DNA from: Cyanophora paradoxa CCMP329
Lineage: Eukaryota > Plantae > Glaucophyta
Length of the DNA stretch: 64,000 nucleotides
NCBI GenBank assembly: GCA_004431415.1
Contig: QPMI01000533.1
Location: 310,001-374,000 of the forward strand
Direction: 5' to 3'
Positions 1,884 to 25,094 of this stretch are shown here, piece after piece (the first letter of the stretch is position 1; each line of letters begins with the position of its first letter). The position numbers were made by a program, and so were the translations under genes. The notes under the pieces were generated by a model. The model searched no databases. It saw only the letters and a list, made by a program, of their open reading frames with translations, and was not told where the DNA came from.

Positions 1884-3254
1884 CTAATGGAAGCGGCGGT
1901 AGGCGCCGCCGTTGGTGAAGGTGATCTCGTTGTAGTAGCGGCAGTAGATGTCGGCCACGGGCTTGTCCGCGCCGTAGGTCTTGAGCGTGGTGAGCGTGAG
2001 CTCGATGGTCTTGAAGGCGCCCATGTCGAGGCCGCCGAACATCTTGGTGTTGTCGGCCACGTCCGTGCCGAAGGGGAGCGAGTAGATGAACTCCGTCCCG
2101 AACTGGCCCACGTTGCGGGGCTGGATGTCGCTGCTGTGCCCGTCGTGGGTCGCGAGGGTCGTGGGGGGCGTGTCGTTGCCCGACCACGGGTGCGGGTGCA
2201 GCGCGTCGGCCACGTCGGCCGCCGCCGTCCCGTCCATCGAGGTCACGCCCCGCAGCAGCTCGAGGTGCTTGCGCGCGGGGGCGTGCGTGTGCTCCTTGTG
2301 CGCGATGGCCGTGCGAAGGAAGTGCGCGTCGTGGTTCGAGCTGTCGAGCACCTTGATGTTGTCGCACTTCAGCTCGATCTTGTCGAGCGGGCGGAAGCGC
2401 CAGAAGTGCTCGCCGTTGTCGGTGTGCGGCTTGTCGCGCACCACGATGATCAGCTCGTAGCAGATTCCGGTGAAGGGCAGGCGGATGGCCTTGCCCGACT
2501 CGAACGAGACGTGGTAGTGCTGCACGTACTTGCCGGCCCACGTGAACGAGTTCGGGTGCAGCGCCAGCTCGCGCGAGTCAATGTGCACGTAGCGCAGGAT
2601 GAGCTTGGTGTCCAGGCTGACGGTGCTCGTCAGGTTGGTGTTGGTGTGCAGGCCGCCGTCCACGTACGAGGCCGTGATCTCCTTCTGCGAGGCGTAGGTG
2701 ATCTGCAGCTTCATGTCGTTTCCGGAGCAGCGGAGCTTGTGGAGCGGCACGGCGAACTTTCGACCGTGGCCCGTCGCGATGCGAATCGGTATGTACAGCG
2801 TGTTCGGGGCCTTGCCCCGGCGGCGCAGCGGCTGGTGCGCCCAGAGGTTGTTCACCATGTCGACGTGCTGGACGACGGACTTGTCGTCCTCGAACTCGCC
2901 GTAGATGGCGTCGTGGTGGCCGGTGTACTCGTGGATCAGCTGCGCGCCCACGAAGATCTTCACGTTCTTGAGCAGCACGTAGCCGGCCTTCGGGATGTAG
3001 AAGTGGTCCGCGTTCGTCAGCGCCGGCAGCGTCACCTTGAGCCAGGAGTCGTTGAACATCGGCGCCGAGTGCGGGATGACGATGTCGACGGTCTGGCTGA
3101 AGCTCACGCCCGACTGCACGGGGCTCACCTCGAGCACCTCGTCCACGAACGGCATCGCCGTGTCAAAGGTCTCGTGCACGTGCACCGACGCGTCGGAGCT
3201 GCGCAGCGAGTGGTGCAGGGCGGTCGTGGGGGTGGAGATGAGCGCGGAAGCCAT
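1884..3254 (-). CDS. MCP: Major capsid protein, NCLDV-type double jelly-roll (456 aa)
   Basis: Motif series of NCLDV MCPs: SFSQTVDIVIP..FNDSWLKVTLPAL; GYVLLKNVKIFVGAQLIHEYTG; TLYIPIRI..FAVPLHKL; FIYSLPFG..FGGLDM..IELTL; YCRYYNEITFTNGG. Confidence 0.88.
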   Translation of the reverse strand: MASALISTPTTALHHSLRSSDASVHVHETFDTAMPFVDEVLEVSPVQSGVSFSQTVDIVIPHSAPMFNDSWLKVTLPALTNADHFYIPKAGYVLLKNVKIFVGAQLIHEYTGHHDAIYGEFEDDKSVVQHVDMVNNLWAHQPLRRRGKAPNTLYIPIRIATGHGRKFAVPLHKLRCSGNDMKLQITYASQKEITASYVDGGLHTNTNLTSTVSLDTKLILRYVHIDSRELALHPNSFTWAGKYVQHYHVSFESGKAIRLPFTGICYELIIVVRDKPHTDNGEHFWRFRPLDKIELKCDNIKVLDSSNHDAHFLRTAIAHKEHTHAPARKHLELLRGVTSMDGTAAADVADALHPHPWSGNDTPPTTLATHDGHSSDIQPRNVGQFGTEFIYSLPFGTDVADNTKMFGGLDMGAFKTIELTLTTLKTYGADKPVADIYCRYYNEITFTNGGAYRRFH

Positions 3255-3296
3255 GGTGGTTTAGGGGTGCGTTGAGAAAATTTTTTGGGTGGACGC

Positions 3297-5267
3297 CTAC
3301 GTTATTAGAGAGCGCGCCCCCCGTCTCGCTAGGTCCGCGTCGTACGCCTTCTTGCGGAGTGCGTCCGTGATCGCAGACCAGTCGCGTGTGCCGTTAAGAT
3401 AACCCAGGGCAAGTCCTTGGCCCAACATGAAGTAACGCTCTGGGTCCAAGTTCATGAGTTGCTGGGCCCGCTCCTCTACGCGCCGCACACGCTCCATAAA
3501 GGGGCCCTTTGCCGCAGATCCGAGCGGGTCCGCTTCTCGCTCAGCTTCGAAGAATTTCACGACATCCCCGCCCAGGTCCGAAATATCACGGTGCTGCTCT
3601 GCTATCCGTGCCTGTGCCTTGTTGACTCCAGCTGCCTGGGCATGGGCTATCGATGCCAGTTGGTTGTAATCGATTTCTTCTGCAAGGTATTTCGCAACGG
3701 CGGCGTCCCCTGCAGCGCGCGCGATTTCGGGCGATACGCTCACAAGGAATCCCTCCCGGCGAGCCCGATTGGCCGCGCGCTCCGCTTCCGTCTCCTCGTC
3801 CATGGGATCGTCTGGACTGGCTGGATTGCCTGGAGCACCGGAGCGAAGTTTCTTCAGCAGCCCCGCACGGCGAGCTTCTGTCGCCTCTTTCACCTTCTTG
3901 GCGGCCAGTTCAAGCGCATCGTTTACGTCCATGGTCGCATACCCGGGTCTCCGCCCCATATCCTTGTACGCGGCCCTGCGCTTGTCCATGGCTTCCTTCT
4001 CGCGCGGGGACGAGGGGGCGATTTCTATCCCCGCGTTTGCGAGTTGAGCCTGGACGGCGACGGGCACCTGCTCGAGCACGGCCCTTGCCGCCGCAACAGC
4101 CACCGCCTCGGCCGCCACCACCTCTGGCGGGCGCGAGGGCCCCGCCTGCGGCTCGGGTGGCGGCGGGGGCGGCGGTGGGGGTGGAGGCGGGGGCTGCTGC
4201 TCCGCTGGGGGCGCCGACGACCGGGCCACCGTGTCCGGGGGCTGCGAGGGGCCGGGCTGCGGCTGCAGCGGTGGCGTCTTCGGCCCGGGGGGCGGAGGCG
4301 GCGGAGGCGGAGGCCCCGGAGGCGGGGCCCCCCCTTCGTCGTCGGAGTCTGACTCGATCATTTCGTCTCTGGGTTCCTTGGACGGTAGGGCCTTCTGAAT
4401 GAGGGCCTCGCGCGCGCCCTTGCCCGCCTTGATTGCTCTGCCCATGGCCGCCTCCGGGAAACTGGCCTCGATGGCCTCGTTGTCCCCGTCCGTGATGCGC
4501 ACCTTCTGCTCGCGGCGGGCCTTGATGTACTTTTCCTTGTCCATCCGCTTCTTCGCCCGTCGCCTCTCCCTGGGCACGTCGCGCTGGCGGCTCTCGTCCG
4601 GCCCCGGCCCCTCGCTGTCCGAGCTCGAGGGCGGCTCGGCCTGGGCGAAGGGCTGGCGCGTGTTGCGGTTCGCGTAGTCGGGGTCGTACCTCCCTCCGAT
4701 CAGCTCCTCGGGCTTCTTGTTCTCGCGCGCGTAGATGCTCGTGGGCTTGAACTCCTCGCCGTTGATGATGTACTTGTAGTAGTAGTACGCATCCTCGAGG
4801 TTCATCGGCCCCAGCGTCTCGAGGCGCTTCTTGCGCTTCAGGAATTCGGTGATCTGATCCTCCTTCGACTTGCAGAACTCCCGCACGCCCGGCAGCACCG
4901 TCAGGTTCTTGCCGTCCACGTCGCAGGCGCCCGCTCCCTTGGCCTTCAGGTTCGCGGTGAAGGCCGACTGGCCCATCAGCCAGGCGCGGAAGCCCTCCTC
5001 GTACTCCTCGTCGAGGCTCGACTCCATCTGCTGGAACTTGTTGATGTAGTACGCGTTGGCGATGGCCTGCGCCTCCACCTCGGCGAGCTTGTCCGATTGA
5101 TCGCGCTCCTCGAACCGAATTTCCGGCGTGGCCCTCGCCAGCGCCGTCTTCATCAGCTGCTGAAAGTGCGCGTACTTGTCGCTCTCGAAGGGCGTGATGT
5201 GCGAGTCCCCGCCCCCCGGGATCGCGAGCACGTTGCGCGGCGCGAAACGCGAGGCGAGCCCCCTCAT
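3297..5267 (-). CDS. Viral protein with globular N-terminal domain and Pro-rich linker (656 aa)
   Basis: Long ORF with viral codon usage. N-domain FRAWLMGQS..LPGVREF..GPMNLEDAYYYYKYII, followed by poly-Pro tracts. Function unknown. Confidence 0.8.
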   Translation of the reverse strand: MRGLASRFAPRNVLAIPGGGDSHITPFESDKYAHFQQLMKTALARATPEIRFEERDQSDKLAEVEAQAIANAYYINKFQQMESSLDEEYEEGFRAWLMGQSAFTANLKAKGAGACDVDGKNLTVLPGVREFCKSKEDQITEFLKRKKRLETLGPMNLEDAYYYYKYIINGEEFKPTSIYARENKKPEELIGGRYDPDYANRNTRQPFAQAEPPSSSDSEGPGPDESRQRDVPRERRRAKKRMDKEKYIKARREQKVRITDGDNEAIEASFPEAAMGRAIKAGKGAREALIQKALPSKEPRDEMIESDSDDEGGAPPPGPPPPPPPPPGPKTPPLQPQPGPSQPPDTVARSSAPPAEQQPPPPPPPPPPPPPEPQAGPSRPPEVVAAEAVAVAAARAVLEQVPVAVQAQLANAGIEIAPSSPREKEAMDKRRAAYKDMGRRPGYATMDVNDALELAAKKVKEATEARRAGLLKKLRSGAPGNPASPDDPMDEETEAERAANRARREGFLVSVSPEIARAAGDAAVAKYLAEEIDYNQLASIAHAQAAGVNKAQARIAEQHRDISDLGGDVVKFFEAEREADPLGSAAKGPFMERVRRVEERAQQLMNLDPERYFMLGQGLALGYLNGTRDWSAITDALRKKAYDADLARRGARSLIT

Positions 5268-6978: not shown

Positions 6979-7455
6979 TCACACCGGATTGAGCGCGGCG
7001 TAGAGCGCGATCAGGTAGGCGTCGCAGAGGTCGTCGAGCTTGCCGTTTCGATCCGCGATGTCGGCGAGCTCGGCGGGTACGAGGTCGCGGCACTTGTCCA
7101 CGGCGCCCCGCTTGCGCTCCTTGTAGCTCGGGTTCGAGATCTTGAAGAAGTGCTTGATGGCGCGCGGGCTCACGATCCGCGCACGCCCGTACAGGAGGGC
7201 GTGGAGCGTGCACTCGATGCAGCGATTGATTCCCGTCCTCTGGCCCTCGATCGCGATCTGGTCGGGAAGGCCGAAGGCGCTATGGCCGCGAGTAACCTCC
7301 ACCAGGCGCGCCACAAGGCGGCCACAGCAGCGCGCAGACGGGAAGAGGGCGATCTTCTGCCAGTCGAGAATCTGGGATTCCTTTGTCTGCGGATCGAATT
7401 CGATGAGGCACCATGCGAAATTGATGACCCCCACATCCACGCCGAGGATCTTCAT
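6979..7455 (-). CDS. RuvC/poxvirus A22-like Holliday junction resolvase (158 aa)
   Basis: MKILGVDVGVINFAWC (Asp I), IAIEGQ (Glu), SYKERK, KLDDLCDAYL (C-terminal Asp pair). Confidence 0.9.
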   Translation of the reverse strand: MKILGVDVGVINFAWCLIEFDPQTKESQILDWQKIALFPSARCCGRLVARLVEVTRGHSAFGLPDQIAIEGQRTGINRCIECTLHALLYGRARIVSPRAIKHFFKISNPSYKERKRGAVDKCRDLVPAELADIADRNGKLDDLCDAYLIALYAALNPV

Positions 7456-7492: not shown

Positions 7493-8563
7493 ATGGCCAA
7501 AGACCCCAAGAAGCCGAAGAAGCCGAAGGCGGCCAAGCCCCAGCCCGCCCAGCCCCAGGGCGCCGCCCCGGCCCCCGCCCCCGCCGCGGGCCAGGCCACC
7601 GGCACGGGCGCGGGCACGGCCCCCGCCGCCGGCGCCAGCTGCGCCATGGGCATGACAGAGGACGGCCAGCAGCTCACGCCCGAGCAGGTCAACGCCTTCC
7701 TCGACAACTCGAAGACGGGCGGCATCGAGCGCATGGCCTGCCTGCCCGAGCTCAAGTGGTTCGACGTGAACACCGTCAAGTCCGATGCCACGGTCGTCTG
7801 CGTCGGCAAGCGGCGCACGGACAAGTCCTTCTTCCTCCGCGATCTCATGTTCAACCTCTCGGGCACCTTCCCGGGGGGTATCGTGATCAGCCAGACCGAT
7901 CGCCTGAACGGGTACTGGAAGCAGTACATCCCGCAGCGCTTCATCTGGCCCAAGTACAACCCGGGCGTGCTCTTCCATTTATTCAGGAGGCAGCAGGCGA
8001 TCATGCAGCACAACAAGTCCGAAGACGTGCTCGCGGGAAAGGAGGATCCCGTCGACCCGCGATTTTTCGTGCTGCTCGACGACGTGATTTCCGACGCTCG
8101 GCTGCGGTACGACGAGGCCCTCAACGAGCTCTTCGTGGCGGGGCGCCACTACAAAATCATGACCCTTATCACGACGCAGTATGCCAAGGGCATCAATCCC
8201 GTCCTGCGCTCCAATACTGATCTGGCTGTCATTTTCAAGTGCTCGCAGGCGATGCAGCGCGAGGCCCTCGCAAAGGAGTGGGGCGACATCATATCCCAGC
8301 GCGCCTTCTACTACCTGCTCGATAAATACACGCAGGATAACCACTGCCTTATCATCGATTCTTCCAACAACTCTACGAACCCTCTGGACGTCCTGTACGT
8401 CTACAAGGCCGAGGAGCCGCCCCCGTTCCGAATCGGATCCAAGGAGTACTGGGAGGGCGAAACCGTCAACGGGGAAAATCTCGTGGGTCCGGACGACGGC
8501 ACGGTGGACAAGACGCTCCTCGGCATGATAGATAATTTCAGGAAGCACCGCGGCCTCGCCTGA
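7493..8563 (+). CDS. A32-like (FtsK/HerA) genome-packaging ATPase; Walker A has G>D
   Basis: VVCVGKRRTDKS, GIVISQTD..YIP, FFVLLDDVI (Walker B), LFVAGRHYKI..TTQY..INPVLRSNTD. Confidence 0.92.
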   Translation: MAKDPKKPKKPKAAKPQPAQPQGAAPAPAPAAGQATGTGAGTAPAAGASCAMGMTEDGQQLTPEQVNAFLDNSKTGGIERMACLPELKWFDVNTVKSDATVVCVGKRRTDKSFFLRDLMFNLSGTFPGGIVISQTDRLNGYWKQYIPQRFIWPKYNPGVLFHLFRRQQAIMQHNKSEDVLAGKEDPVDPRFFVLLDDVISDARLRYDEALNELFVAGRHYKIMTLITTQYAKGINPVLRSNTDLAVIFKCSQAMQREALAKEWGDIISQRAFYYLLDKYTQDNHCLIIDSSNNSTNPLDVLYVYKAEEPPPFRIGSKEYWEGETVNGENLVGPDDGTVDKTLLGMIDNFRKHRGLA

Positions 8564-9321: not shown

Positions 9322-10152
9322 CTAAAGAGTAGGAAAGAAATGCCAGTCGTTGTACTCGCATATCCTGTTCCAAATGGAATCCAGCTCCGAGAGTTTCTGC
9401 CTGCTCTTGAGCAAGGGGAAAAAGGGGAGGTGCTGGGGCAAATCTAGCAGCACGAAAATCTGCCTGAAGACGTAGTTGTAGTTGAGCATGTTCTTCCTGC
9501 CCTGCGACTTGAAGATGCTGAAGGGGACCTCCACCAGGGCGAACATCTCCTGCACCCGGTCCATGTCCTCCGCGCTCATCGGAGGCGGGCGCTCGCCCGT
9601 GATGCGCCACTTGATCTGCGCCCAGCGCTCGATGTACTTCTGCTGCTTCAGAGCCCGGAGAACTTGGCGGATATTGTCTTTGCTCCACTCCTTCCCCGCC
9701 ATGCGCCTCGCAATAGCTGCCAGCACGTCCTCGGGTACTGGAGAATCCTCCAGGCAGTGCTGCTTAAGTCGCTCAGATACGTGGTACTTCCGCAGGTAGT
9801 TGCTGTGGAGCTCGCTGACAGCCAGGGGTTGATGGTCCGGATAATAAAAATCCAGGACCAGACCGCAGCCTTGGCAAACCAGATCCCCATCCAGGTGAAC
9901 ACCAACGAGGGCGGTAGAGCCGCAATTTCCGCAGGGGACAGCGGCTTCGCCTTGGGGGCCTTGGGTGCGGCGGTTGCGCTTGCGGGGGCGCTCTCCGGCC
10001 CCGAGGTAGGAGTTGGCGATGGCGGCGGCGGCGGCGGGGTACGGTGCCGGAGTGTCGAAGTCTGGGTCCCCCTCGTCGTGAAGGATGGCGCCGTAGCGCT
10101 GGATCTGCTCGAAGTTTCGGAGGAGGAGATCGATTTCGCCAGAGTCTGCCAT
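9322..10152 (-). CDS. VLTF3: Viral late transcription factor 3 (VLTF3, poxvirus A2-like)
   Basis: Zn ribbon CGNCGS..VCQGCG, YLRKYH..ERL, and the diagnostic RKNMLNYNYVFRQIFVLL..LPFFPLLKSRQKL..DSIWNRICEYNDWHFFPT. The start could be further upstream. Confidence 0.93.
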   Translation of the reverse strand: MADSGEIDLLLRNFEQIQRYGAILHDEGDPDFDTPAPYPAAAAAIANSYLGAGERPRKRNRRTQGPQGEAAVPCGNCGSTALVGVHLDGDLVCQGCGLVLDFYYPDHQPLAVSELHSNYLRKYHVSERLKQHCLEDSPVPEDVLAAIARRMAGKEWSKDNIRQVLRALKQQKYIERWAQIKWRITGERPPPMSAEDMDRVQEMFALVEVPFSIFKSQGRKNMLNYNYVFRQIFVLLDLPQHLPFFPLLKSRQKLSELDSIWNRICEYNDWHFFPTL

Positions 10153-10383
10153 TCCTCCGAGTCCTCGTACTGCAGCTGGGCTATTCCCTTGCAGAAGTGG
10201 CAAACGGGCTTCGCGCAATCGAGTGGGTCCCAACCGCAGGTGAGCCCGCAGATGTGACAGAAGGCGTTGCTCAGGTGATTCATGTGAGGCTCAGGTGGTG
10301 CTCAGGTGAGGTGCGGACGTACCCCGGGGCCCCACGTGGAAGCTCACCCCAGCCTCGGAAAATTTTCTAGGCCTTGGTCTGAC

Positions 10384-11226
10384 ATGCTCAACCTCATCGC
10401 GAGGGGCGTAGCAGCAAACAGGCAAGCCCGGGCACCGAACCCTCACCTCCGCATGGACGCCTCCGGCCGCTCCCGGGTAGAGACGCACATCGTGGTGGGC
10501 AACATCAACGACAAGGTGCTGGCGCCCGACAAGACGTGGTTCCAGAAGGTGCTGGACGCGGCGCCCGTGAGGAGACTGAACGGAGAGGATCGGCCCCAGC
10601 GCGAGTCGAATTTCATGATCACCATCCAGACCAACTACAAGCCGCGGAGCAGGGGAGAGGGCGCCAAGGTGCAGGACGCCTTTTACAGGGGGCTGGAGGC
10701 CCTCTTCTACGACGACAGGCAGCTGGCGCGGTGCATAAAGATGGGGGTGTACCCCGACAAGGCGAACCCCAAGGGCTTCGATTTCAAGTCCGACCAGTAC
10801 GACACGCACGTGGAGAAGGGCAACGCGAACATCGGCATCGAGTACGGGCCGCGGTCGGGGCGGCTCCACGCGCACATCCTGCTCACGCTGGTGCACTACT
10901 CGCGCGTGCAATTCGACGGCAAGCGGGCGTCGGATTTCCTCATCGATTTCATGCGGACGGAGGGGCAGGGCGGCCTGCCGAATTTCTACAAGGACGACTG
11001 GTTCGGGGAGGAGTACCAGAAGACGGCGGTGCGGCCGATACGGAGAAAGGACGCCCTCGGCATGCAGTGGACGGGCAAGGAGACGGGCTACAGGAAGCGA
11101 GAAACCGCCAGGCAGATGCACGTAGACGTGAAATTGCTGCCTCAGAGCAACCTCAAGGATCTGCTGCAGCTGTACATTACGAAGACGGTAGAGGCCCTCG
11201 AGACGGGCGCTGTAAAGCTCGTGTAA
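10384..11226 (+). CDS. HUH endonuclease (Rep-like), short form (280 aa)
   Basis: Motif I-like SNFMITIQTN, motif II IEYGPRSGRLHAHILL, motif III LQLYITK. Confidence 0.85.
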   Translation: MLNLIARGVAANRQARAPNPHLRMDASGRSRVETHIVVGNINDKVLAPDKTWFQKVLDAAPVRRLNGEDRPQRESNFMITIQTNYKPRSRGEGAKVQDAFYRGLEALFYDDRQLARCIKMGVYPDKANPKGFDFKSDQYDTHVEKGNANIGIEYGPRSGRLHAHILLTLVHYSRVQFDGKRASDFLIDFMRTEGQGGLPNFYKDDWFGEEYQKTAVRPIRRKDALGMQWTGKETGYRKRETARQMHVDVKLLPQSNLKDLLQLYITKTVEALETGAVKLV

Positions 11227-11249
11227 ATTTTTTCTCGTGTCCAATAAAT

Positions 11250-13280
11250 ATGCCTCCGAGGCGCCGAGGCCGCAAGAAGAAGCCAGAGAGCTCGAGCGAG
11301 TCAGAGGAAGAGGAGCCCACGTCCCCGTCCTCCGAGTCGGAGGAAGAAGAGGAGGAAGAGGAAGAGGAGCCGGAGCCTAAGCCGAAGGGTAAGGGCAAGG
11401 GGAAGGGAAAGGGAAAGGCAAAGGGAAACGCGCCCGATACCGGCGTGGACGAGCTCGAGACGCCCGTCGTTGAGATTCCGAAGCGATACGTGCTGGTGCA
11501 GGGCGAGGATGGCATATTCCAGCAGCAGAAGAGCATATCCGATTACATCAAGCTCTCGGCCACCAAAGAAGTTCAGATGCTCCCATCGCTGCTCGATAAA
11601 TCATACCACGAGCCCGCGACCCTCTGGAGCATCCACAGCGAAATCGAGTACGATAAACTCCCCGAGGAGCGACTGCGCGCCATACCGCGCACGTACCAGA
11701 GCGCGCAGAAATCGCCGCCGATCTGCTACCGCTGCCTTCGCCTCATGTACGAGGCCACGCCCGTGCCGAGCGCCAAGGGGGCCAACACGCCAGAGAAAAT
11801 CGCCGCGAGGGAGGCAGCGCAGGCGAGGAAGGATGCCGTGTACGAAGAGTACGTTGCAGTCATAGAGAAGGCAAACGCATGGGCAGCCAAGCAAAACGGC
11901 AAGGGGAAGAAAAAGGGTCAGGAGCCGTACCCCCTCATCAAGGACAAGAAGCCGGCGCAGGTGCCCACGGTGTCGCCCAGAAACTCGTGGCTCTGCCAGA
12001 AGTGCGTCACGCTGCTCGGCAACAAGGGCCTGCTCGTGATCTTGGGCCTGCAGAGGCGAAAGAGGGGCGACACGGCCACCGTCTCCAAGCAGACGCGCGA
12101 CCACATGGTCGAGAGCGTGCTCGGCGGGCCGAAGCCAAAGACCACGAAAAAGGCAAAGGATACGGCCGCTGACTTCGGATCGTCCGTCATCGAGCCCAAC
12201 TCCGCACAGTCGAAAATCAGAAAGGCGAAAATCGTGGCGCCGAGCATGGAAGATTTAATGGCAACCTTCGCGGACGCGCAAGAGGTGAAGCAGAACATAG
12301 AGAAGGCGAAAACGGGACTGCAGGCGGCGCAGGCAAACGGGCTGGAGGCGCTCGAGAAGGTGATCACGGAAATCAGCGAGACGGGGCGGTCGGTCTTCAT
12401 CCTCAACAAAAAGAATCCCGACGGAAGCACGCGGTACGACATACGACAGGCGCGCCAGTCGCGCTACTGGGTGCTCTTCAACACACACAAGCGCCTGGGA
12501 GAGGCGCGAGAATTCGAGGCGGCGGCGCTGCGCGACAGCCTCGCAGAGGTGCTCTCGGACGCAGAATTCTACAAGTTCATCCGCTTCAATTTGAAGGAAG
12601 AGAACGGCAAGTACAAGGACGACACGTACGCCAACGCAATCATCGGAATTCGCGTGCAAGGGGGCGTAGAGGTGGGGCCGACGGACGGGGCGCTGCACGC
12701 CCACGTGCTGGTGACGATCGATCACATATCGAATTTGCAGGTGCTGTGGGCGAATTACGACTGGGTGGTGCTGCTCAAGGAGAAGGAGCCGGGCACCACG
12801 ACGGTGTACGAGCGGCTGCACCAAATTCTGTCCGCGAAATTCACAGCGGCCGGGCAGCGCCTCGTAGACCAGAAGAGAGCAGAGGCAGGGCCGCAGCCGA
12901 GCATCGATACGATGGTGGAAATCGCAGAGCTCGAGCGCATGCTGACGGAAGAGAAGATAGGCATGGGGAAAGATCCGCCCACCGTCCTTGCGTCGCTGAT
13001 TCCGGAGGAAAATTACGCGAGCAAGCTGCAGGAGTACCTCTCGAAGACGCTGCCCGACAAGCAGAGGCGCGATTTACTGAAAGAGTGGTCGCACGCGCGA
13101 AACACGAACAACACCGACAACAACACGGACGGGTACCTCTTCACGATTTTCCAGGCGGACGCCGGCCAGGCGGACGACCCCCGCTTTGCGCCGCAGGCCG
13201 CGGAAATCGGCGACCTGAGGGCCAGGGGCCGAGGGCGCGGAAAGGGCAAGGGGCGCGGAAGGGGCAGGGGTAGCGGGTAA
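11250..13280 (+). CDS. HUH endonuclease, long form (676 aa) with acidic/KG N-terminus, split CxxC pair and RG tail
   Basis: SRYWVLFNTH, VEVGPTDGALHAHVLV, LQEYLSK; also CYRC...CQKC. Confidence 0.82.
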   Translation: MPPRRRGRKKKPESSSESEEEEPTSPSSESEEEEEEEEEEPEPKPKGKGKGKGKGKAKGNAPDTGVDELETPVVEIPKRYVLVQGEDGIFQQQKSISDYIKLSATKEVQMLPSLLDKSYHEPATLWSIHSEIEYDKLPEERLRAIPRTYQSAQKSPPICYRCLRLMYEATPVPSAKGANTPEKIAAREAAQARKDAVYEEYVAVIEKANAWAAKQNGKGKKKGQEPYPLIKDKKPAQVPTVSPRNSWLCQKCVTLLGNKGLLVILGLQRRKRGDTATVSKQTRDHMVESVLGGPKPKTTKKAKDTAADFGSSVIEPNSAQSKIRKAKIVAPSMEDLMATFADAQEVKQNIEKAKTGLQAAQANGLEALEKVITEISETGRSVFILNKKNPDGSTRYDIRQARQSRYWVLFNTHKRLGEAREFEAAALRDSLAEVLSDAEFYKFIRFNLKEENGKYKDDTYANAIIGIRVQGGVEVGPTDGALHAHVLVTIDHISNLQVLWANYDWVVLLKEKEPGTTTVYERLHQILSAKFTAAGQRLVDQKRAEAGPQPSIDTMVEIAELERMLTEEKIGMGKDPPTVLASLIPEENYASKLQEYLSKTLPDKQRRDLLKEWSHARNTNNTDNNTDGYLFTIFQADAGQADDPRFAPQAAEIGDLRARGRGRGKGKGRGRGRGSG

Positions 13281-15160: not shown

Positions 15161-18100
15161 ATGTCGATGCTTGCAGACCCCTGGCGCATGGCCATCCCGA
15201 ATCCCGACGAGGTGCTGAACGGTGCCTTCGCGATAGACGGGAGCCTGAGCGTGAGGGGAATTTACGCGGACGAGATTAGGCTGCGGCAGGGATCCACGTA
15301 CAACGATTTCCTGACGACCATAGGCTCGCTGGTGGACTACGGGGACCTCACCGCAATTATCAAGGGGCTCTGGGGGGTCACGACCGAGACGGGCGTGGAC
15401 TGGAACATTATTAAGAGGGCGGCCGACGTGAAAATCGCGAACGCCGTCACGGCAAAGGACGCCACCATCAACCTCGTGAAGCTGACCCTGCAGGGCGCAG
15501 AGGGAGACGTGAGGCCCGGGTACAACGCGCTCGAGCGCATCGCGGGCCCCCTGCGCCACATCTACTGGAGCCGCCAGGCGCTGCCGAGCATGGAGCCCGA
15601 GCAGTACAGGCGCGACAGGGAGGAGTTTTTCGCGTGGTTCGACCACTTCAAGGTGAACATCCGCGCCCTGAGCGCCGACAGGACGGGCGAGACGCCGGAG
15701 ACGACGGGCGGGGGCCGCATCCCAACGGCGCCCGACGTGCTCCCCGATCGCTCGGACTGGGCGAAGACGCAGAACTGGGCGCTGAAGGACCACTTCCACG
15801 ACGAGAGGTACGCCCTCGTCAAGCACCCGCACGTGAAGGCCGACATCACGGACTGGGCGCACCGCCACCTGTACGACGACATCATCGGCGGGCCCAAGGT
15901 GCCGGGTGCGATTCCGGTGGGGTACGGGTGGTGGAAGCACGGGAGGTGGGGGTACAGGCACCGGGGTGGGGTACAGGCACCGGGGTGGGGGTACAGGCAC
16001 GGGGGCGGAGGGGCTCCAGCGGCACGCCAGTGGGCGGGGCGGGGGCAGCAGCGGCTCGGGTGGCGGCGGCTCAGGCGGGGAGGGCATGGATAAGGTAGCA
16101 GGCCTTGCCACTTCAACGGCCATCTTCGGGGGCGCCCTCATCGTAGGCGGCATCAAATACTACAAGGATCGGAAGGGGTTCGTGAGGCAAATCGACGAGC
16201 TGAACGCGAGACCCCCCATTAAATTCGATTCCGAGGACGCGCAGCGCGAGTACTACAAACTCGAGAACGAAAAGAAGCAATGGAGCGAGCTGAAAGACAA
16301 GGAAATGACAGAGGTCGCGGAGAAGAAGGCGGAAGCGAACAAGCTGATGACAGACGCGCAAAGGCAGGAAGAGAGCGCCCTCACCGCGCTAAGGTCGGCA
16401 GAGCGCCAGGTCGCGGAAGAGCGCACGAAAATGATACTCGACGCCGAGGAGGAGCTGAAGAGGATAAACGAGCAAAGGGAAGCCGCCAAGGCGAAAAAGC
16501 TGCAGGAAATTGAAGCGCTGACCGCAGGCACCGAGCTGCTCGAGGCGCAGAGGAAAGAGATCGAGGATAGGAAGAAGAAATTGGAAAAGGAGGCAGAGAC
16601 GAGAAGGCAGCTGCTGGAAGAGGAAGAGGAAACGAGGAGAAAGGCAGGAGAGCTGCAAACGGGCGCGGTGCAGGAGGCGAACAGGCTCCGGGAGGAGATC
16701 AAAAATTTAAAGGAGGCCGCCGAGCGCGCGGACGAGCAGTCGAAAAATTCAAGGCCAACGCGGACGAGCTGGCACAGAGGCTGCTCAAGTACGCGGCCAC
16801 GGCAGAGGCTCGCTCGCCCATGGGGACGGCCGAGACGCAGACGACGCCGAGGCCCGATCCGAGGCCGGCCGCCGAGAGGCTGCCCTTCGCGCGGCTGGGT
16901 AGGAGCGACCAGGTGGAAGAGCTCATTGGCCTCACGCTCGAGGATCAGAGGGCCCTCTTCGACGCGTTAGAGCAGCGGCGCAGGGCGGACGAGGAGGCAG
17001 CTGCCAAGACAGAAGAGGAACGACTGAAGGCAATGCAAACTGCATCAGACGAGGAATTTGCACGGCTGGAGGAGCCGAAGGTAGCGGAGCGTAAGCGACG
17101 ACTGGAGACGTTCAGGGGGCGCAGATGGATTTTTACCGCTCGGAGCTCAAAAAACTGAAAGAAGGAAATGCATCGGGGGACAGGGTCCGCGCCATGGAAG
17201 AGAACATGCGCGACTTTAGCTACGTTATGGATCAGCTGACGGGAAGGGGTCAGAAAGACGCCGAAGAACTGAGGAGAAAGATGGCCGATGAGAAGTGGAA
17301 AAACTTTGAGCGTCAGGCTGTTCAGAGGCCCATCAGCGATGCCATCTGGATAGCATACGGCGACGTGGAGGAGATGCACCGCGAACTGCGGACGGAAGCG
17401 AGCCTATGGCGGGGAGCCCTCGAATGGTCACTGTACCGGATGCAAAGGGAAAGTTTGTGGCAGAGCTGCGAGCCAATCCGAAAACGGTGAGCGCGGGCGC
17501 ACAGAGCGCGTACCTCTCCATGGTCGATTACGTGGGCAAGCTGAGCAAATTTTGGGAAATGCGAAGAGCCATCATTCCAGCGGAGGGGCTCGCGCAGTAC
17601 GATGCCATGGTGCGCGATCTGGAGGCCTTCAAACGTGAGCACCCACCCGCCAAATACAAGATTCACATAGATACGACGGCATTCATGGGCGATCTAAGGA
17701 AGAGAGGAGACGAGGCCAAGAGTCAGATCGAGGAGCGCTACAGAAAGGCCCAAGCGGACAAGGAGTACGCAAACAGGGTGATCGAAGAGCGGAAGCAGCA
17801 AGCCAAGGAGAACGCGGCGAGACGCAACGCCGAGATAGAAGAGCAGAGGCGGAAGATCACAGAGCGCAAGGCGGCAGAGGAAGAGGCAAGAAAGACCAAG
17901 GTAGAGACAGAGTACCAAGCATTGAAACGGGAGGCCAATCAACTGTTAAAAAGGAGGGGAAGGGCCTACGCCGACGAGGGCGCGGGCGTGGGCTCGGCCA
18001 GCCCGGACGACATCACCCTCGCGGAAAGGGACGACGTTTCCGTAGAGGAAATGCGCCCGGGCACAGCTCGCCTGCCCTCCGAGGGCGTATTCCAGACGCT

Positions 18101-20399
18101 CGACAGGCGCGTGATGGGCGACTCGGACGTTATTTTGCGCAACGCCCTGATGCCCTACGGCGACTGGAACCGCGCCACCGCCGACGCCCTTGCGGATTTC
18201 GACCTCGAGCGATTCACCACCAAAGAGCAGCGCGACGCGTACCTGGGGCGCCCGAGGGCAAGGCGGCCCGGGGTGGCCAAGGAGGCCCTCAGCGCCGAGA
18301 CGCTCTTCTCGGCGGCGGGTACGGCGAACAACGACGGCATGTCTTTCGGGGCAGCCGATTTATTTCAGGGGGCGGGCATCGACCTGGTGGGCGCCGGGCT
18401 GGGGGGTACGGGCTCGCGTGCCATGCGGCGGGCGGGCGCGGCGGCGGCGGGCCTTGGGCTGGCGACGGCGGGCGGCCTGCTCTCGGCCTACCAGGCGCTC
18501 TCGCAGGGCAAGATAGGGGAGGCGGAGTTCTTCGATACGTTCCGCGATCAGATGATCATGACGGTCGGCTCCTTTGGCCTGCAGACGGGCATGTCGTCCG
18601 CCCTGAGCGCCCTCACGAAAATGAGGATCGGCACGGTGGGCGGACTTGGCCTGTCCATCCTCGCGGGCGCCATCGCGCAGGTGATCGTGGATATCATCAA
18701 CGGGCGCAGCGCGGAAGAGATCGTGAAGAACTTCTTCAAGTACCCCGTTGACTGGGCCGCCGACACCATCCAGTTCATCGCGCAGCTCTCGCAGCAGATC
18801 TACGACTGGGGCGTCGAGACGTGGGGCGACGAGGCGAGCCAGCTGCGCAACCGAATTAATCGGCTGGAGGGCGAACTGGGCTCCGGATTTTTGGGTGTGT
18901 ACGACCCCTCGGAGGCGCGCGAAATGGCCTCGCTCTTGGCCCAGGAGCTGCGGTTAAACGAAATAAAGGAGCCGAAGGAGCTGCAGGCCTTCATTCGCGC
19001 GCTCGACAACAGCATCAACGATTACCGTACCCCCAAGGACCAGAAGACTCTGCTCGAAATTGATCGCGCAACCGTGCTCTTCCTCTCTCAGCTCACCGTT
19101 AAAATGCAGGAGGGCTTCGGGTCGACCTCGCTCGCCCTGAGTCGGCTGATGCGCGACCTTAAGCAGATGGTGAAGGAGGAGACCAAGGGGCGGAAGCGCG
19201 TCTTAATAGCCGTCTACCAGGAGGGCCTCAACAGGATCAATCACATCGAAGCCCTAAGGCGCGAATTCGGCTCGGCCATCCGTCACTCGGGCGTCTCGTC
19301 GAACGGAGGGGCCCAGGTGGCCCGCCTGGCCGACGCTAACTCGCGCCTCGAAATTCCCGGGACCTTCCGCATGCAGGATTGGTGGGAGGCCGAGGCATTC
19401 AGGAACTACGGCGCCTTCATAGACAACGGGATCAATTCGCAGAGCCCCAAGGCCAACTGGCTGGTACCCAAGGCGTACGTCGATAAATTGATGGACAGGC
19501 CCGCGGCACCCTACAGCAAGAAGATCGCCAAAGGCGTAGAGTACTGGGCGCCCGAGCCCGGTCAGCCCGTGTTTGCGGCGCAGAACTACGAGTGGCACGT
19601 GCCCTCGGGGCCCAGCCAGGCCATCAGTACCGTGGGGGTTGCCGCGCCGCAGCTGGCGGCGGTTGCGCATACGGGGGAGTACAAAGATTTAAAAGGGAAG
19701 CCGGAGACGACGTGGGATAGCATCACGGGGAAGCCGAGCACGTACCCCCACGCAACTCACAGGCACACCATCTCCGAGATCAGCGACTGGACGGCCCCCA
19801 ACTTGACGAACATCACCGTTGACTGGGAAACCCAAGTTACGGGGAAGCCTCTCGCCTTCCCCCCCACGACCCACAGTCACGCCGTGAACTGGAACACAGA
19901 TATTTACAACTTACCAGGCACCTTCCCCCCCTCTACGCACAGTCACACCGTGGACTGGAATACAGATATTTCAAACTTACCAGACACCTTCCCCCCCTCT
20001 ACGCACGGCCATTCCCAGTACGCTGATGCCGACCATGGCCACAGAAACGTGAACATGTCAGATGCTTACGTGCAACATGGCACCTTCTTGTACACGTTCG
20101 CCTCAGGCACTTATTTGGATAGCAACTTTGCGTACACGACCACGTTTACCAACATTCCTTTCGCGACTGCGTACGACACAGGAGGTGGACTCTATCCCGC
20201 AAACCCCACCCCAACCGTAATACTTACCCCATTCTTCGTACTTGGCAGCCAGGAAGTTGAGATCGGGGCCCGCCTCGTCGCGTTAGACCATACCAAATTT
20301 ACGGCCAAAGTGAGGATGAAGCCCTCGGTGTCAGTCACTATTACCGACCATGTACCGCTCAAGCTCCATTGGATTGCAGTGGGCAAGCTGGTCATATGA
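15161..20399 (+). CDS. Giant fibre-like protein (~1,745 codons), split by at least 4 frameshifts in this sequence
   Basis: Five overlapping ORF segments give HxH repeat, Gly linker, coiled coil, Gly/Ala hydrophobic block, phage-fibre repeats (WDSITGKPSTYPHATHRH; W..DI.NLP.TFPPSTHSH) and an H-lectin/gp53-like end (IPFATAY..PTVILT..LHWIAVG). Confidence 0.7.
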
Positions 20400-20423: not shown

Positions 20424-21251
20424 ATGTCCGTTGCTGTCCCTCTGTTCACCTACGCTGCCAGCGTGAATCACAAGGGCGATCACACGATCAAGGAAACCAC
20501 CCTCGGGGATCAGGCCACCGAGACCCCCTACAACGCCACGGCCGTCCCCTTCACCGAGGCCGACCTGGTGCGAGTGGGCGAGCTGCGCTGCGATAAGATG
20601 CGCACGCGGGAGGGTGGGCCGGCCGTGCCGGGGCGCGTGAAGACGCAGAGGCTCACCGTCACGAACGGGTCCTGGGATGGGACGGGTCACACTACGAACA
20701 CCATAACTCATAACCCCGATGCGGACGGAGAGGGGAACTCTGCACTTTACGTGCATACAGGGGGCGCAAACGTGGTAGGGGGGCTCAGGGTCAACGGGAC
20801 CGTCACGGTGGTTTCTGGGCACCTTCGAGTCGCTTTGCACCCTTTCTTCTGCGCGGCCATGATAGCGGATTTCACACCAGCGAGCGGCAGAATCCTGGGC
20901 GTTTGGCAGAATTCTGCAAACTCGGGTGCATGGGACGGAAGCACGGGGCTGTTCACCAGCCCCGTGACTGGGTACTACCGGTTTACGTTCACCGGAATCG
21001 CAGATTGGATCGGGGGAGTTCGGACAACCGTACAGCTGTACGTGAACGGATCGGCGCACGCCAACCCTCTAATCAGCGCGCACACAGATGGGGACCCGGA
21101 CGCGCCACAGAAATACAGACATATAGGATTCAATGCTATCGTCTACATGGTCGCCGGATGGACCGCGAACCTGCACCTGGCGATCGGGAAATTGTATGGA
21201 TCGTCCAAGGGGTACACATTCTTCACAGGCGAGCTTGTACAGGCCACCTAA
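20424..21251 (+). CDS. C1q-domain protein (putative spike/adhesin)
   Basis: AWDGSTGLFTSPVTGYYRFTF..VQLYVNG..YTFFTGELV follows the C1q consensus. Confidence 0.85.
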   Translation: MSVAVPLFTYAASVNHKGDHTIKETTLGDQATETPYNATAVPFTEADLVRVGELRCDKMRTREGGPAVPGRVKTQRLTVTNGSWDGTGHTTNTITHNPDADGEGNSALYVHTGGANVVGGLRVNGTVTVVSGHLRVALHPFFCAAMIADFTPASGRILGVWQNSANSGAWDGSTGLFTSPVTGYYRFTFTGIADWIGGVRTTVQLYVNGSAHANPLISAHTDGDPDAPQKYRHIGFNAIVYMVAGWTANLHLAIGKLYGSSKGYTFFTGELVQAT

Positions 21252-25017: not shown

Positions 25018-25040
25018 TTTGCCCTAGGTTCGGAAAAACC

Positions 25041-25094
25041 TGGGACTTGGGACTTGGGACTTGGGACTTGGGACTTGGGACTTGGGACTTGGGA
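25041..25094 (+). repeat. (TGGGACT)x7.7 heptamer array
   Basis: Perfect tandem repeat read directly. Confidence 0.97.

What the first reader, a model, noticed from the sequence alone, without database searches (positions are those of the whole stretch)
10384..13280. Tandem pair of HUH endonucleases, both with intact catalytic motifs: candidate replication plus integration module
Seen: adjacent paralogs sharing E.GP..G.LHAH(I/V)L and Y(I/L)(T/S)K. The long one adds an acidic/KG head, a split CxxC pair and an RG tail. Known: HUH enzymes nick and rejoin ssDNA in rolling-circle replication, in Helitron/IS91 transposition and in AAV Rep-mediated integration. Inference: with no integrase seen, one HUH may insert or excise the provirus, with RuvC resolving intermediates.
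Basis: partly seen in the sequence, partly recalled or inferred. Interest (0 to 1): 0.8.

Follow-up and report, generated by a model that had tools for sequence, protein, structure and literature searches.

The report
Mriyavirus-type HUH nuclease gene pair
Two neighbouring genes in a virus-derived stretch of an alga-like genome both carry the full catalytic signature of DNA-nicking HUH enzymes and match a gene pair already described in mriyaviruses, small relatives of giant viruses, where they are predicted to start viral DNA replication; nothing found here shows that they insert the virus into the chromosome.

Summary
ORF A (10384-11226, 280 aa) and ORF B (11250-13280, 676 aa) are adjacent on the same strand and are paralogous (BLASTP E 2e-8). 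Both keep HUH motifs I, II (E..G..HAH) and III (Y..K).

They belong to a family with 489 relatives (E <= 1e-3), including a Pleurochrysis endemic virus 1a/1b protein (E 1e-14). Neighbouring genes encode an NCLDV-type capsid protein, A32 ATPase, VLTF3 and A22/RuvC. This is the published mriyavirus gene set, and the "HUH + HUH_long" pair is already described for 'Gamadviridae' (Yutin 2024).

In 8 of 15 related IMG/VR viral contigs, a short HUH gene is followed about 20-40 nt later by a long ORF that ends in a second HUH domain. The pair therefore belongs to the free virus and is not specific to proviruses.

What differs here is the long protein. It is 676 aa rather than 1,591-2,114 aa, and it has an unrelated head with an acidic/KG stretch and two conserved CxxC pairs.

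The most likely role is nicking to initiate replication. An integration role has no support, but it is not excluded: no integrase was found in the window or in 12 related loci. Fold searches agree with an HUH fold but do not discriminate it from other folds. Interest is moderate to low: a new variant of a known kind.

The parts
10384..11226 (+). Short HUH endonuclease gene (280 aa, P0001). Motif I is at 10606-10635, Glu153 at 10840-10842, HAH at 10867-10875 and YITK at 11173-11184.
   Evidence: coordinates. (motif conservation). BLASTP E 1e-14 to the Pleurochrysis endemic virus 1a protein AUD57243.1; model with core pLDDT 90-97.
11250..13280 (+). HUH_long-like gene (676 aa, P0002): a lineage-specific N-terminal region followed by a C-terminal HUH domain.
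11250..11429 (+). Basic-acidic-KG low-complexity head of the long protein (residues 1-60).
   Evidence: An acidic head is also present in P0021, P0031 and P0033.
11724..12005 (+). Split four-cysteine module: CYRC (11724-11735) and CQKC (11994-12005), likely a zinc-binding element.
   Evidence: Both CxxC pairs are conserved in the 5 aligned long forms of this lineage. They are the only CxxC motifs in the protein. The zinc-binding role is inferred.
12432..13064 (+). C-terminal HUH domain of the long protein. Motif I is at 12456-12485, HAH at 12696-12704 and YLSK at 13035-13046.
13200..13277 (+). RG/KG-rich tail of the long protein.
   Evidence: The only matches are chance-level, to Sm D1 RG tails (E 0.09).
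10269..10308 (+). Three copies of GCTCAGGTG within 40 nt, 76-115 nt upstream of the short HUH start codon. They are candidate promoter or initiator-binding repeats.
   Evidence: these are the only 3 matches in 64 kb (0.63 expected; 2 of 100 shuffles reach 3). The function is inferred.
9322..10152 (-). VLTF3-like late transcription factor, transcribed divergently from the HUH pair.
   Evidence: Pox_VLTF3 E 4.3e-24, TFIIB zinc ribbon; 34-39% identity to ORFs in 8 of 15 viral loci.
7493..8563 (+). A32-like DNA-packaging ATPase.
   Evidence: Pox_A32 E 0.0024, below the curated cut-off; 52% identity over 238 aa to an ORF of viral locus L008.
6979..7455 (-). A22/RuvC-like Holliday junction resolvase.
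   Evidence: Pox_A22 E 7.2e-7; Ydc2 catalytic domain 4.7e-6.
1884..3254 (-). NCLDV-type major capsid protein.
   Evidence: Capsid_N E 1e-6; codon-position GC pattern.

Best explanation
The two adjacent genes are paralogous members of the mriyavirus HUH endonuclease family, a short 'HUH' and a short-headed form of 'HUH_long', and they are predicted to nick one strand of the viral DNA at an origin and thereby likely start its replication by a host polymerase.

Shown directly:
- The two proteins are paralogs, and motifs I, II and III are intact in both.
- They are homologous to a Pleurochrysis endemic virus protein and to hundreds of metagenomic relatives.
- The short-then-long gene order is conserved in related viral contigs.
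- The surrounding genes are mriyavirus-like: NCLDV-type capsid, A32 ATPase, VLTF3 and A22/RuvC.

Inferred:
- The conserved Glu and the two His hold a divalent metal.
- The single Tyr on the following helix attacks the DNA and stays linked to the 5' end.
- The freed 3'-OH primes strand-displacement synthesis.
- The neighbouring RuvC-like resolvase would process branched or palindromic intermediates, as proposed for the rudivirus Rep plus resolvase system.
- Because each protein has one Tyr and the closest solved relative (SIRV1 Rep) is reported to be a dimer, the two paralogs may act as a pair that supplies two tyrosines. The long protein's four-Cys head and RG tail may add DNA binding or nuclear targeting. 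This last step is speculation and could not be tested.
For: Paralogy: (E 2e-8).

Motif conservation:
- of 169 proteins, His 161 and 162, Glu 162, Tyr 143, Lys 142. No other residue is ever aligned at the Tyr or Lys position.
- H162 and H164 are invariant in 79 sequences.
- all catalytic positions are kept in both the short and the long lines (47 proteins; Tyr in 45).

Family size: one search gives 489 hits at E <= 1e-3 and 118 at <= 1e-10.

Link to named mriyaviruses. P0190 is AUD57243.1 / AUL80779.1 of Pleurochrysis sp. endemic virus 1a/1b, with BLASTP E 1e-14 and 39/116 identical to P0001.

Published description of the pair (passages of PMC11253617): all mriyaviruses encode an HUH endonuclease. 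Gamadviruses add HUH_long, which has a C-terminal HUH domain, and both are predicted active. In PEV2 these are genes 11 and 10.

Conserved adjacency: 8 of 15 IMG/VR loci have a short HUH followed on the same strand by a 1,591-2,114-aa ORF ending in an HUH domain. In 2 more loci a long ORF opens at that spot and runs off the contig.

Context genes.

Fold: model 2 has core pLDDT 90-97, with motif I on strand 73-82, HAH at the start of strand 161-171 and Tyr264 on helix 257-266.
- VIA-align: rank 2 is an S. tokodaii transposase, 2ec2_A (Z 7.1, rmsd 3.9, 116 aligned). Also listed are bocavirus NS1 nickase (Z 5.5), TrwC relaxase (Z 5.4) and SIRV1 ORF119 (Z 5.3, 21% identity).
- BFVD: the top hit has E 4.5e-11. 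Of the 16 named rows among the 50 shown, 11 are replication initiators of rudi-, micro-, gemini-, parvo-, circo-like and bacilladnaviruses.
- Pfam: 6 of 79 family members weakly match REP_ORF2-G2P (best E 0.0013) and 1 matches Rep_1.

Mechanistic precedent (passages of PMC5062984): rudivirus Rep nicks the genome terminus and a viral Holliday junction resolvase is proposed to resolve the intermediates.
Against: - Neither protein matches a Pfam, PHROG or NCBIfam family at a curated threshold.
- Sequence and profile searches of the PDB find nothing.
- Foldseek against the PDB gives no match at E <= 1e-3.
- In both VIA-align searches, generic ferredoxin-like or palm folds (GGDEF, adenovirus E4-ORF3, Thg1) score as high as or higher than the HUH enzymes, and all Z are below 8. 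The fold evidence is compatible but not discriminating.
- No origin or nick site was identified. The 231-nt region upstream of the short gene folds no better than shuffles (z +1.41).
- No helicase was found: no Walker A motif occurs in any of 29 window genes. No ssDNA-binding protein was recognised in the part of the element seen.
- Nothing biochemical is known for any member of this family.
- The heterodimer idea is untested.
Confidence: 0.7

Rival explanations
1. One of the two HUH paralogs, most plausibly the long one with the Cys-rich head, would catalyse insertion or excision of the viral genome in the host chromosome. The chemistry would resemble AAV Rep or HUH transposases, and RuvC would resolve the intermediates.
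For: - The element is embedded in a eukaryote-like sequence and is multi-copy. Clusters at 90% identity hold 12 members each, and there are many gene models from one alga.
- No integrase, recombinase or transposase domain was found in the window genes, in 53 ORFs from 24.6-38.9 kb, or in 120 ORFs of 12 related viral loci.
- A duplicated nuclease invites sub-functionalisation.
Against: - The pair is equally present in viral contigs from metagenomes (8 of 15) and in the Pleurochrysis endemic viruses, so it does not track integration.
- Both paralogs have a single Tyr and no fused helicase. My recollection, not from any call, is that IS91 and Helitron enzymes have two Tyr.
- Only one end of the element can lie in the window, and no junction, target-site feature or second copy could be compared.
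- The left part of the element is unseen and could hold an integrase.
Confidence: 0.12
2. Only one paralog, the short one, is the working initiator. The long one would be a non-catalytic or regulatory partner, for example an origin-binding, genome-end-attached or packaging-linked protein that keeps the motifs for binding.
For: - The long form carries lineage-specific heads that differ completely between lineages: 676 aa here against 1,591-2,114 aa elsewhere, with no profile match. That suggests an adaptor role.
- In runs guessed to be RNA, contigs cover the short gene as a discrete unit of about 780-830 nt, while the long gene is covered only in fragments at lower depth. This is a weak hint.
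Against: All catalytic residues (D, E, G, H, H, H; Y and K wherever aligned) are kept in the 23 long forms examined, across very deep divergence. That is hard to explain without catalysis.
Confidence: 0.1
3. The proteins are not HUH nucleases at all. They would be another ferredoxin-like or palm-fold enzyme, for example a nucleotidyl cyclase or transferase, whose His-x-His and Tyr resemble HUH motifs by chance.
For: The top structural matches by Z are GGDEF cyclases with model 1 (Z 7.8) and adenovirus E4-ORF3 with model 2 (Z 7.4). There is no significant sequence match to any solved Rep.
Against: - The order and spacing of the three motifs and their placement on strand, strand and helix fit HUH.
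- The only recurrent Pfam family is a Rep family.
- The named viral structure matches are mostly Reps.
- SIRV1 Rep has the highest sequence identity (21%) among the listed structural hits.
- The published HHpred probability to SIRV1 Rep is 96.7.
Confidence: 0.04

Closest known systems
HUH and HUH_long of 'Gamadviridae' (Mriyaviricetes; Pleurochrysis sp. endemic viruses; Yutin et al. 2024, PMC11253617)
   Same: - A short stand-alone HUH gene lies next to a longer gene whose C-terminus is a second HUH domain with intact motifs.
- The genomic company is the same: NCLDV-type MCP, A32 ATPase, VLTF3 and A22-like RuvC, with no DNA or RNA polymerase seen.
- There is direct sequence homology to the PEV1a/1b protein (E 1e-14).
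   Different: - The long protein is 676 aa here. In PEV2 the HUH domain sits at aa 1353-1574, and the related IMG/VR loci have 1,591-2,114 aa.
- Its head (acidic/KG stretch, two CxxC pairs) has no detectable similarity to the long heads.
- The short protein has an insertion of roughly 50 aa between motifs II and III.
- This lineage branches outside the PEV/IMG-VR clade.
- Whether the duplication is shared with gamadviruses or arose independently is unresolved (p-AU 0.506).
- The element is chromosomal and multi-copy.
SIRV1 ORF119 Rep (PDB 2X3G) of rudiviruses
   Same: - It is a small single-Tyr HUH initiator of a dsDNA virus that also encodes a Holliday junction resolvase.
- It is the published best match of mriyavirus HUH.
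- It is listed here with Z 6.4 and 5.3 and the highest identity, 21%.
- A rudivirus replication protein appears among the BFVD hits (prob 0.97).
   Different: - It is an archaeal virus protein of about 119 aa with no paralog pair.
- The similarity found here is weak, and no sequence-level match was found.
- Hairpin-ended linear genome ends are documented for rudiviruses but not for this element.
AAV Rep68/78 and HUH transposases (IS200/IS605 TnpA, IS91, Helitron)
   Same: - They use HUH chemistry that can cut and rejoin DNA and so, in principle, integrate it.
- An S. tokodaii transposase (2ec2) is the best HUH structural match (Z 7.1). That it is of IS200/IS605 TnpA type is my recollection.
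- ISDra2 TnpA appears weakly in Foldseek (E 0.03-0.04).
   Different: - There is no fused helicase.
- No transposon-like ends were identified.
- No evidence of site-specific insertion was found.
- The family's distribution follows a virus genome, not a transposon.

Membership tests
HUH endonuclease superfamily | Motif I: a hydrophobic beta-strand upstream of the HUH motif | tested here: met
   FMITIQT in A and YWVLFNT in B. The positions are hydrophobic in the family (F/L/Y, I/V, I/Y/L) and lie on strand 73-82 of the model.
HUH endonuclease superfamily | Motif II: His-hydrophobic-His | tested here: met
   HAH in both proteins. His is kept in 161 and 162 of 169 proteins, is invariant in 79 and is present in 47 of 47. 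An upstream Glu is kept in 162 of 169; a role for it as third metal ligand is inferred.
HUH endonuclease superfamily | Motif III: catalytic Tyr followed by Lys (Yx2-3K) on a helix | tested here: met
   YITK and YLSK. Tyr is aligned in 143 of 169 proteins and Lys in 142, and no other residue is ever aligned there. Tyr264 lies on helix 257-266.
HUH endonuclease superfamily | HUH fold, with the His pair and the Tyr juxtaposed at one active site | tested here: inconclusive
   HUH enzymes are among the matches: 2ec2 Z 7.1, 4kw3 Z 5.5, 1omh Z 5.4 and 2x3g Z 5.3, plus Rep proteins in BFVD. They do not stand above generic ferredoxin-like folds, and Foldseek against the PDB has no hit at E <= 1e-3.
HUH endonuclease superfamily | Metal-dependent ssDNA nicking with a covalent 5'-phosphotyrosine intermediate | not testable with these tools
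   This needs biochemistry.
Mriyavirus HUH endonuclease (Yutin et al. 2024) | Sequence homology to the HUH proteins of named mriyaviruses | tested here: met
   P0190 is AUD57243.1 (PEV1a) / AUL80779.1 (PEV1b). The profile gives E 5.9e-85 and BLASTP to P0001 gives E 1e-14. The accessions in the paper's table (PEV2 AUD57292.1, yaravirus YP_010800648.1) were not themselves retrieved.
Mriyavirus HUH endonuclease (Yutin et al. 2024) | Encoded in a small genome with NCLDV-type MCP, A32 ATPase, VLTF3 and RuvC, and without DNA or RNA polymerase | tested here: met
   MCP, ATPase, VLTF3 and RuvC were found, and no polymerase domain was found in the window genes scanned. Only about 25-28 kb of the element is in the window. 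No helicase was seen. Other core genes such as Mriya_48 were not tested.
Gamadvirus HUH_long | A C-terminal HUH domain with intact motifs, encoded next to the short HUH gene | tested here: met
   Adjacency is seen in 8 of 15 related loci, and in PEV2 as genes 10 and 11.
Gamadvirus HUH_long | A long conserved N-terminal region (about 1,350 aa in PEV2) homologous among gamadviruses | tested here: not met
   The head here is about 390 aa. A profile of the heads of the 5 long forms of this lineage finds none of the other long forms or proteins over 500 aa held, at E <= 10. Pfam finds nothing in either kind of head.
Gamadvirus HUH_long | Descent from the same duplication as the gamadvirus HUH_long | tested here: inconclusive
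   The short forms are one side of a branch (SH-aLRT 88), and the nearest rows to P0002 are other long forms. However, a tree that holds this lineage's short and long forms together is not rejected (p-AU 0.506).
HUH transposases and integrating Reps (IS91/Helitron, IS200/IS605, AAV Rep) | Transposon or provirus ends recognised by the enzyme, and defined insertion junctions | not tested
   No second copy of the element and no whole genome were available.
HUH transposases and integrating Reps (IS91/Helitron, IS200/IS605, AAV Rep) | A fused or adjacent helicase (Helitron, AAV Rep) or a two-Tyr motif (IS91/Helitron; recalled, not from a call) | tested here: not met
   There is one Tyr in motif III of each protein. 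No Walker A motif occurs in either protein or in any of the 29 window genes.

The most novel reading that the evidence does not exclude
Mriyavirus-like viruses that lack any integrase enter and leave algal chromosomes by HUH chemistry. After an ancient duplication, the short paralog kept replication initiation. The long paralog, with its zinc-binding head and RG tail, became a Rep-like integrase/excisionase acting at the repeat-array ends. That would be a first for viruses of the giant-virus phylum.
Probability: 0.08. Interest if true: 0.85.

Novelty: new variant of a known kind. Interest (0 to 1): 0.38.

Why it matters
The HUH plus HUH_long pair is a published hallmark of gamadvirus-type mriyaviruses, the small relatives of giant viruses thought to replicate from a nick. 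The core of the finding is therefore not new.

Three things are added here:
- A divergent, chromosome-embedded, multi-copy lineage, whose closest proteins are Cyanophora paradoxa gene models.
- A long paralog with a much shorter and unrelated Cys-rich head.
- A conserved short-then-long gene order across free viral contigs.

Mriyavirus-related regions are known to be integrated in algae, yet no integration gene is known for them. Well-assembled copies like this one are a good place to read insertion junctions and to test what the second nuclease does.

Tried and rejected
Family and sequence searches with no result:
- Pfam, PHROGs and NCBIfam on both proteins gave no family at a curated threshold.
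- PDB sequence searches with P0001, P0002 and the 79-sequence profile gave nothing, or chance-level rows only.
- An ESM Atlas search with the head of the long protein gave no usable hit.

Locus and genome searches:
- The search for related loci with the narrow alignment A2 found no confirmed locus in viral contigs or metagenome contigs. One earlier try failed because the machine was busy.
- The 79-sequence alignment A3 had no stretch conserved enough to search with. The smaller alignment A5 worked.
- No whole genome is held for the window.
- Of 5 viral records asked for, only one was held (estimated 7% complete), and it had no capsid match.

Sequencing runs:
- No listed holder is on record as RNA.
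- The laid runs X15-X17 are only guessed to be RNA and are contigs, so the cover of the short gene is a weak hint of transcription at most.
The element's right end could therefore not be examined on reads.

Other attempts:
- Complex prediction for the short HUH with the C-terminal domain of the long one was never accepted because the queue was full (searches came before the allowed time).
- The DNA between VLTF3 and the short HUH gene folds no better than shuffled sequence (z +1.41).
- Tandem Repeats Finder on the 15 viral loci found no heptamer arrays like those in the window.
- A self-comparison of the window found no second copy of the element.

Rejected readings:
- A polinton-like virus or virophage reading was considered. 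It was dropped in favour of a mriyavirus-like one because of the NCLDV-type capsid, VLTF3 and HUH set. The Bellas 2023 paper has 0 occurrences of 'HUH' or 'Cyanophora' (passages only).
Full report
**Observation**

ORF A is 10384-11226 (280 aa, P0001) and ORF B is 11250-13280 (676 aa, P0002), with 23 AT-rich bases between them. Both show the codon-position GC pattern of the other likely genes of this region.

BLASTP of A against B gives E 2e-8, with 28/108 identical and A residues 70-177 aligned to B residues 399-498. They are real paralogs over a domain of about 200 residues that fills most of A and the C-terminal third of B.

The shared motifs are all present:
- A: SNFMITIQTN, E153, H162-A-H164 and Y264-ITK.
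- B: QSRYWVLFNT, E474, H483-A-H485 and Y596-LSK.

**What surrounds it**

The genes around the pair are those of a small virus related to giant viruses:
- an NCLDV-type major capsid protein (1884-3254, minus strand; Capsid_N E 1e-6);
- an A22/RuvC-like resolvase (6979-7455, minus; E 7.2e-7);
- an A32-like packaging ATPase (7493-8563; Pfam E 0.0024, below the curated cut-off, but 52% identical over 238 aa to an ORF of viral locus L008);
- a VLTF3-like factor (9322-10152, minus; E 4.3e-24), divergent from ORF A.

Further right lie fibre-like and adhesin-like genes and an HNH endonuclease at 24652-25017.

No integrase, recombinase, transposase, DNA polymerase or RNA polymerase domain was found in the window genes scanned, nor in 53 stop-to-stop ORFs of at least 100 codons between 24.6 and 38.9 kb. 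No Walker A motif occurs in any of the 29 genes I listed. A helicase, if the element has one, must therefore lie in the part to the left of the window.

The window starts inside the element. Its right end lies somewhere near 25-28 kb, where GC content drops and three heptamer arrays sit.

**Relatives**

A word-indexed search with A gave 17 proteins. Of these, 15 are gene models named tig..._g....t1 from EukProt, at up to 93% identity, and 2 are metagenome proteins (72% and 55%). The same search with the domain of B gave only the protein itself and 6 such gene models. One of these models is labelled EP00741_Cyanophora_paradoxa. The window therefore most likely comes from that glaucophyte or a close relative, and the element is multi-copy there, with clusters of 12 members at 90% identity.

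A profile search of 1.84 billion representatives found 489 proteins at E <= 1e-3, 118 at <= 1e-10 and 11 at <= 1e-30. A second profile search found 145 proteins, one of them named: a hypothetical protein of Pleurochrysis sp. endemic virus 1a/1b (AUD57243.1, AUL80779.1). BLASTP of this protein against A gives E 1e-14 with 39/116 identical, and the two align over their full length. A has an extra stretch of roughly 50 residues between motifs II and III.

**Motif conservation**

Among the 169 family proteins held at that point, the two His are present in 161 and 162, the Glu in 162, the Tyr in 143 and the Lys in 142. At the Tyr and Lys positions no other residue is ever aligned; the remaining proteins are truncated gene models or are unaligned there.

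In the 79-sequence alignment, D137, H162, H164 and H171 are invariant, and E153, G155, Y264 and K267 are at least 90% conserved.

In a table of 24 short and 23 long forms, D, E, G and the three His are kept in 47 of 47, the Tyr in 45 of 47 and the Lys in 44 of 47. Both paralog lines have thus kept the catalytic set through deep divergence.

**The literature already describes this pair**

I read passages, not whole texts, of the following papers.

*Yutin et al. 2024 (PMC11253617).* All mriyaviruses encode an HUH endonuclease with conserved motifs I-III, and its best HHpred and structural match is SIRV1 ORF119 (PDB 2X3G). Members of the proposed 'Gamadviridae', which include the Pleurochrysis endemic viruses, additionally encode HUH_long. 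This is a larger protein with a C-terminal HUH domain (aa 1353-1574 in PEV2 gene 10) and an uncharacterised N-terminal region. [quoted passage not shown] They propose initiation of rolling-circle replication. The word 'integrat' does not occur in the text.

*bioRxiv 10.1101/2025.04.19.649669.* This preprint reports Mriyaviricetes-related viral regions embedded in a Glaucocystophyceae assembly. It has no mention of HUH.

**Conserved gene order**

With an 11-sequence alignment I fetched 15 IMG/VR loci, from contigs of 15.3-43.9 kb.

- In 8 of the 15 (L001, L005, L006, L007, L009, L012, L014, L015), a short HUH gene of 241-299 aa is followed on the same strand, after about 20-40 nt, by an ORF of 1,591-2,114 aa whose last 250-300 residues or so are a second HUH domain.
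- In 2 more (L008, L011), a long ORF opens at the same spot and runs off the contig.
- In L002 the contig ends just after the short gene.
- L003, L004, L010 and L013 have no long form nearby.

Two Logan contig lengths (8,181 and 4,240 nt) are each shared by a short and a long protein of the window's own lineage (P0027 with P0031, P0030 with P0043). I take this, by inference only, to mean the pairs are also adjacent there.

The pair is therefore a module of the free virus, not something particular to proviruses.

**What differs here**

The long protein of this lineage is 611-724 aa rather than 1,591 aa or more. A profile of its head, built from 5 sequences, matches none of the other long forms or proteins over 500 aa held, at E <= 10. 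Neither kind of head has a Pfam domain. The two CxxC pairs are conserved in all 5 long forms of the lineage. This suggests a zinc-binding module, which is an inference.

In a tree of 45 HUH domains, the short forms are one side of a branch (SH-aLRT 88). I left out P0033 and P0104 because their domain envelopes were partial. The nearest rows to B are other long forms of its lineage (support 99), and this lineage sits outside the PEV/IMG-VR clade on both sides of the tree. However, a tree that holds this lineage's short and long forms together is not rejected, and is in fact marginally better (p-AU 0.506). Whether this is the gamadvirus duplication with a swapped head, or an independent duplication, is undecided.

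**Fold**

With 6 sequences the model was poor (mean pLDDT 60). With 79 sequences it reached mean 76 and 90-97 in the core. Motif I lies on strand 73-82, the His pair at the start of strand 161-171, and Tyr264 on helix 257-266. This is the layout expected of an HUH domain.

The searches do not single HUH out:
- *Foldseek against the PDB:* no match at E <= 1e-3. ISDra2 TnpA appears at E 0.03-0.04 among MoaC and other folds.
- *VIA-align, model 1, against 48,161 chains:* GGDEF domains come first (Z 7.8). SIRV1 ORF119 has Z 6.4 (rmsd 5.8, 104 aligned, 21% identity) and the parvovirus NS1 nickases have Z 6.0-6.1.
- *VIA-align, model 2:* adenovirus E4-ORF3 comes first (Z 7.4). Next is an S. tokodaii transposase, 2ec2_A (Z 7.1, rmsd 3.9, 116 aligned of 130). 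Bocavirus NS1 has Z 5.5, TrwC Z 5.4 and 2x3g Z 5.3 (rmsd 3.2, 86 aligned, 21% identity). All Z are below the level of 8 that the tool calls common.
- *BFVD:* there is one strong hit (A0A2H4YB87_2, E 4.5e-11, unnamed in the tables at hand). Of the 16 named rows among the 50 shown, 11 are HUH-type replication initiators, including a rudivirus replication protein (prob 0.97).
- *Pfam on the 79 members one by one:* the only recurrent family is REP_ORF2-G2P (6 of 79, best E 0.0013). One member matches Rep_1 (E 0.03).

Taken together, the fold evidence agrees with HUH but rests mainly on the motifs and on the published profile-profile match.

**Mechanism**

The best-supported reading is that both proteins are single-tyrosine HUH nickases that initiate viral DNA synthesis. 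Glu plus the two His would hold the metal. The Tyr would cut one strand and stay attached to the 5' end, and the 3'-OH would prime strand displacement by a host polymerase. All of this is inferred from the family.

The nearest characterised analogue is the rudivirus system. There the Rep nicks the terminus of a hairpin-ended linear genome, and a viral Holliday junction resolvase is proposed to resolve the linked intermediates (passages; the title of Oke et al. 2011 in that paper's reference list calls the Rep dimeric). The A22/RuvC gene 3 kb from the pair fits such a scheme.

Each paralog has a single Tyr and the two genes are kept side by side, so a heterodimer with two active sites is an attractive idea. 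The complex predictor was not available, and this remains speculation.

**Integration**

No result speaks for it. The premise that no integrase is seen holds in the window, in 120 ORFs of at least 150 aa from 12 related loci (only VLTF3, DUF5767 and SET domains were found) and in the literature. The question of how such viruses become endogenous is therefore genuinely open. But the pair does not track integration, no junction could be studied, and part of the element is unseen.

I put this reading at about 0.1.

**Expression**

Twenty listed run rows from one organism hold the stretch or a part of it, and none is on record as RNA. In three runs guessed to be RNA, contigs of 789, 827 and 779 nt cover 10411-11199, 10343-11169 and 10351-11108. 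That is the short gene alone. The long gene is covered in pieces at lower depth. Contigs cannot show the ends or level of an RNA, and no silent control stretch was laid, so this is only a hint.

**Verdict**

The pair is an already published feature of gamadvirus-type mriyaviruses. Here it appears in a divergent, endogenous, multi-copy lineage with a new short head on the long paralog. The integration idea is unsupported.

Noticed in passing
window 25038-25130, 25484-25617, 27584-27670: There are three arrays of one heptamer: (TGGGACT)n once, and its reverse complement (TCCCAAG)n twice, with 7.7, 13.7 and 8.7 copies. The first two form an inverted repeat of 93-nt arms (90% complementary) around a 353-nt spacer, just beyond the last clear viral genes. 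They may mark the element's end or a palindromic junction. A related haptophyte element is reported to be flanked by short tandem repeats.
   Followed up: partly
window 10269-10308: Three copies of GCTCAGGTG lie within 40 nt, in the divergent region between VLTF3 and the short HUH gene. They are the only three in 64 kb. The contigs of the runs guessed to be RNA begin about 35-45 nt downstream. They could be a promoter element or initiator-binding repeats.
   Followed up: partly
window 24652-25017 (-): A small HNH endonuclease gene (HNH_3, E 1.8e-7) lies directly beside the inverted heptamer arrays.
   Followed up: no
window 23176-23853 and 23877-24662 (+): This is another tandem pair of paralogous genes (about 29% identity over about 210 aa). 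Neither has a family match.
   Followed up: no
L001, L005, L006, L007, L009, L012, L014, L015 (e.g. L006:10543-16884): The HUH_long ORFs of the IMG/VR viral contigs are 1,591-2,114 aa. Three library representatives of the same very long kind (P0071, P0089, P0108) have no Pfam domain at all, so a head of more than 1,300 residues has unknown function.
   Followed up: partly
L014:2733-2819: A 24-nt repeat (3.6 copies, 93% matches) sits immediately upstream of the short HUH gene (2847-3653) of this viral contig. It is possibly iteron-like.
   Followed up: no
window 17406-20399, 20424-21251, 21259-23136: There is a cluster of large putative surface or fibre genes. The first is a 997-aa ORF with weak matches to phage tail-fibre families. 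The second has a C1q-like domain, and the third has fn3 and rhamnogalacturonan-lyase beta-sheet domains.
   Followed up: no
window 51466-57049; 37366-40559 vs 60796-64000: Outside the viral region there are two host-side repeats: a unit of about 1.9 kb repeated three times in tandem (98-99% identity), and a 3.2-kb segmental duplication (93.5%).
   Followed up: no
P0213 (EukProt Prymnesium polylepis) and MMETSP transcripts in the cluster of P0190: A short HUH protein nearly identical to that of viral locus L005 is a gene model of the haptophyte Prymnesium polylepis. The PEV1a/1b protein also occurs as MMETSP transcripts. This suggests that such elements are present, and transcribed, in haptophyte cultures.
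   Followed up: no
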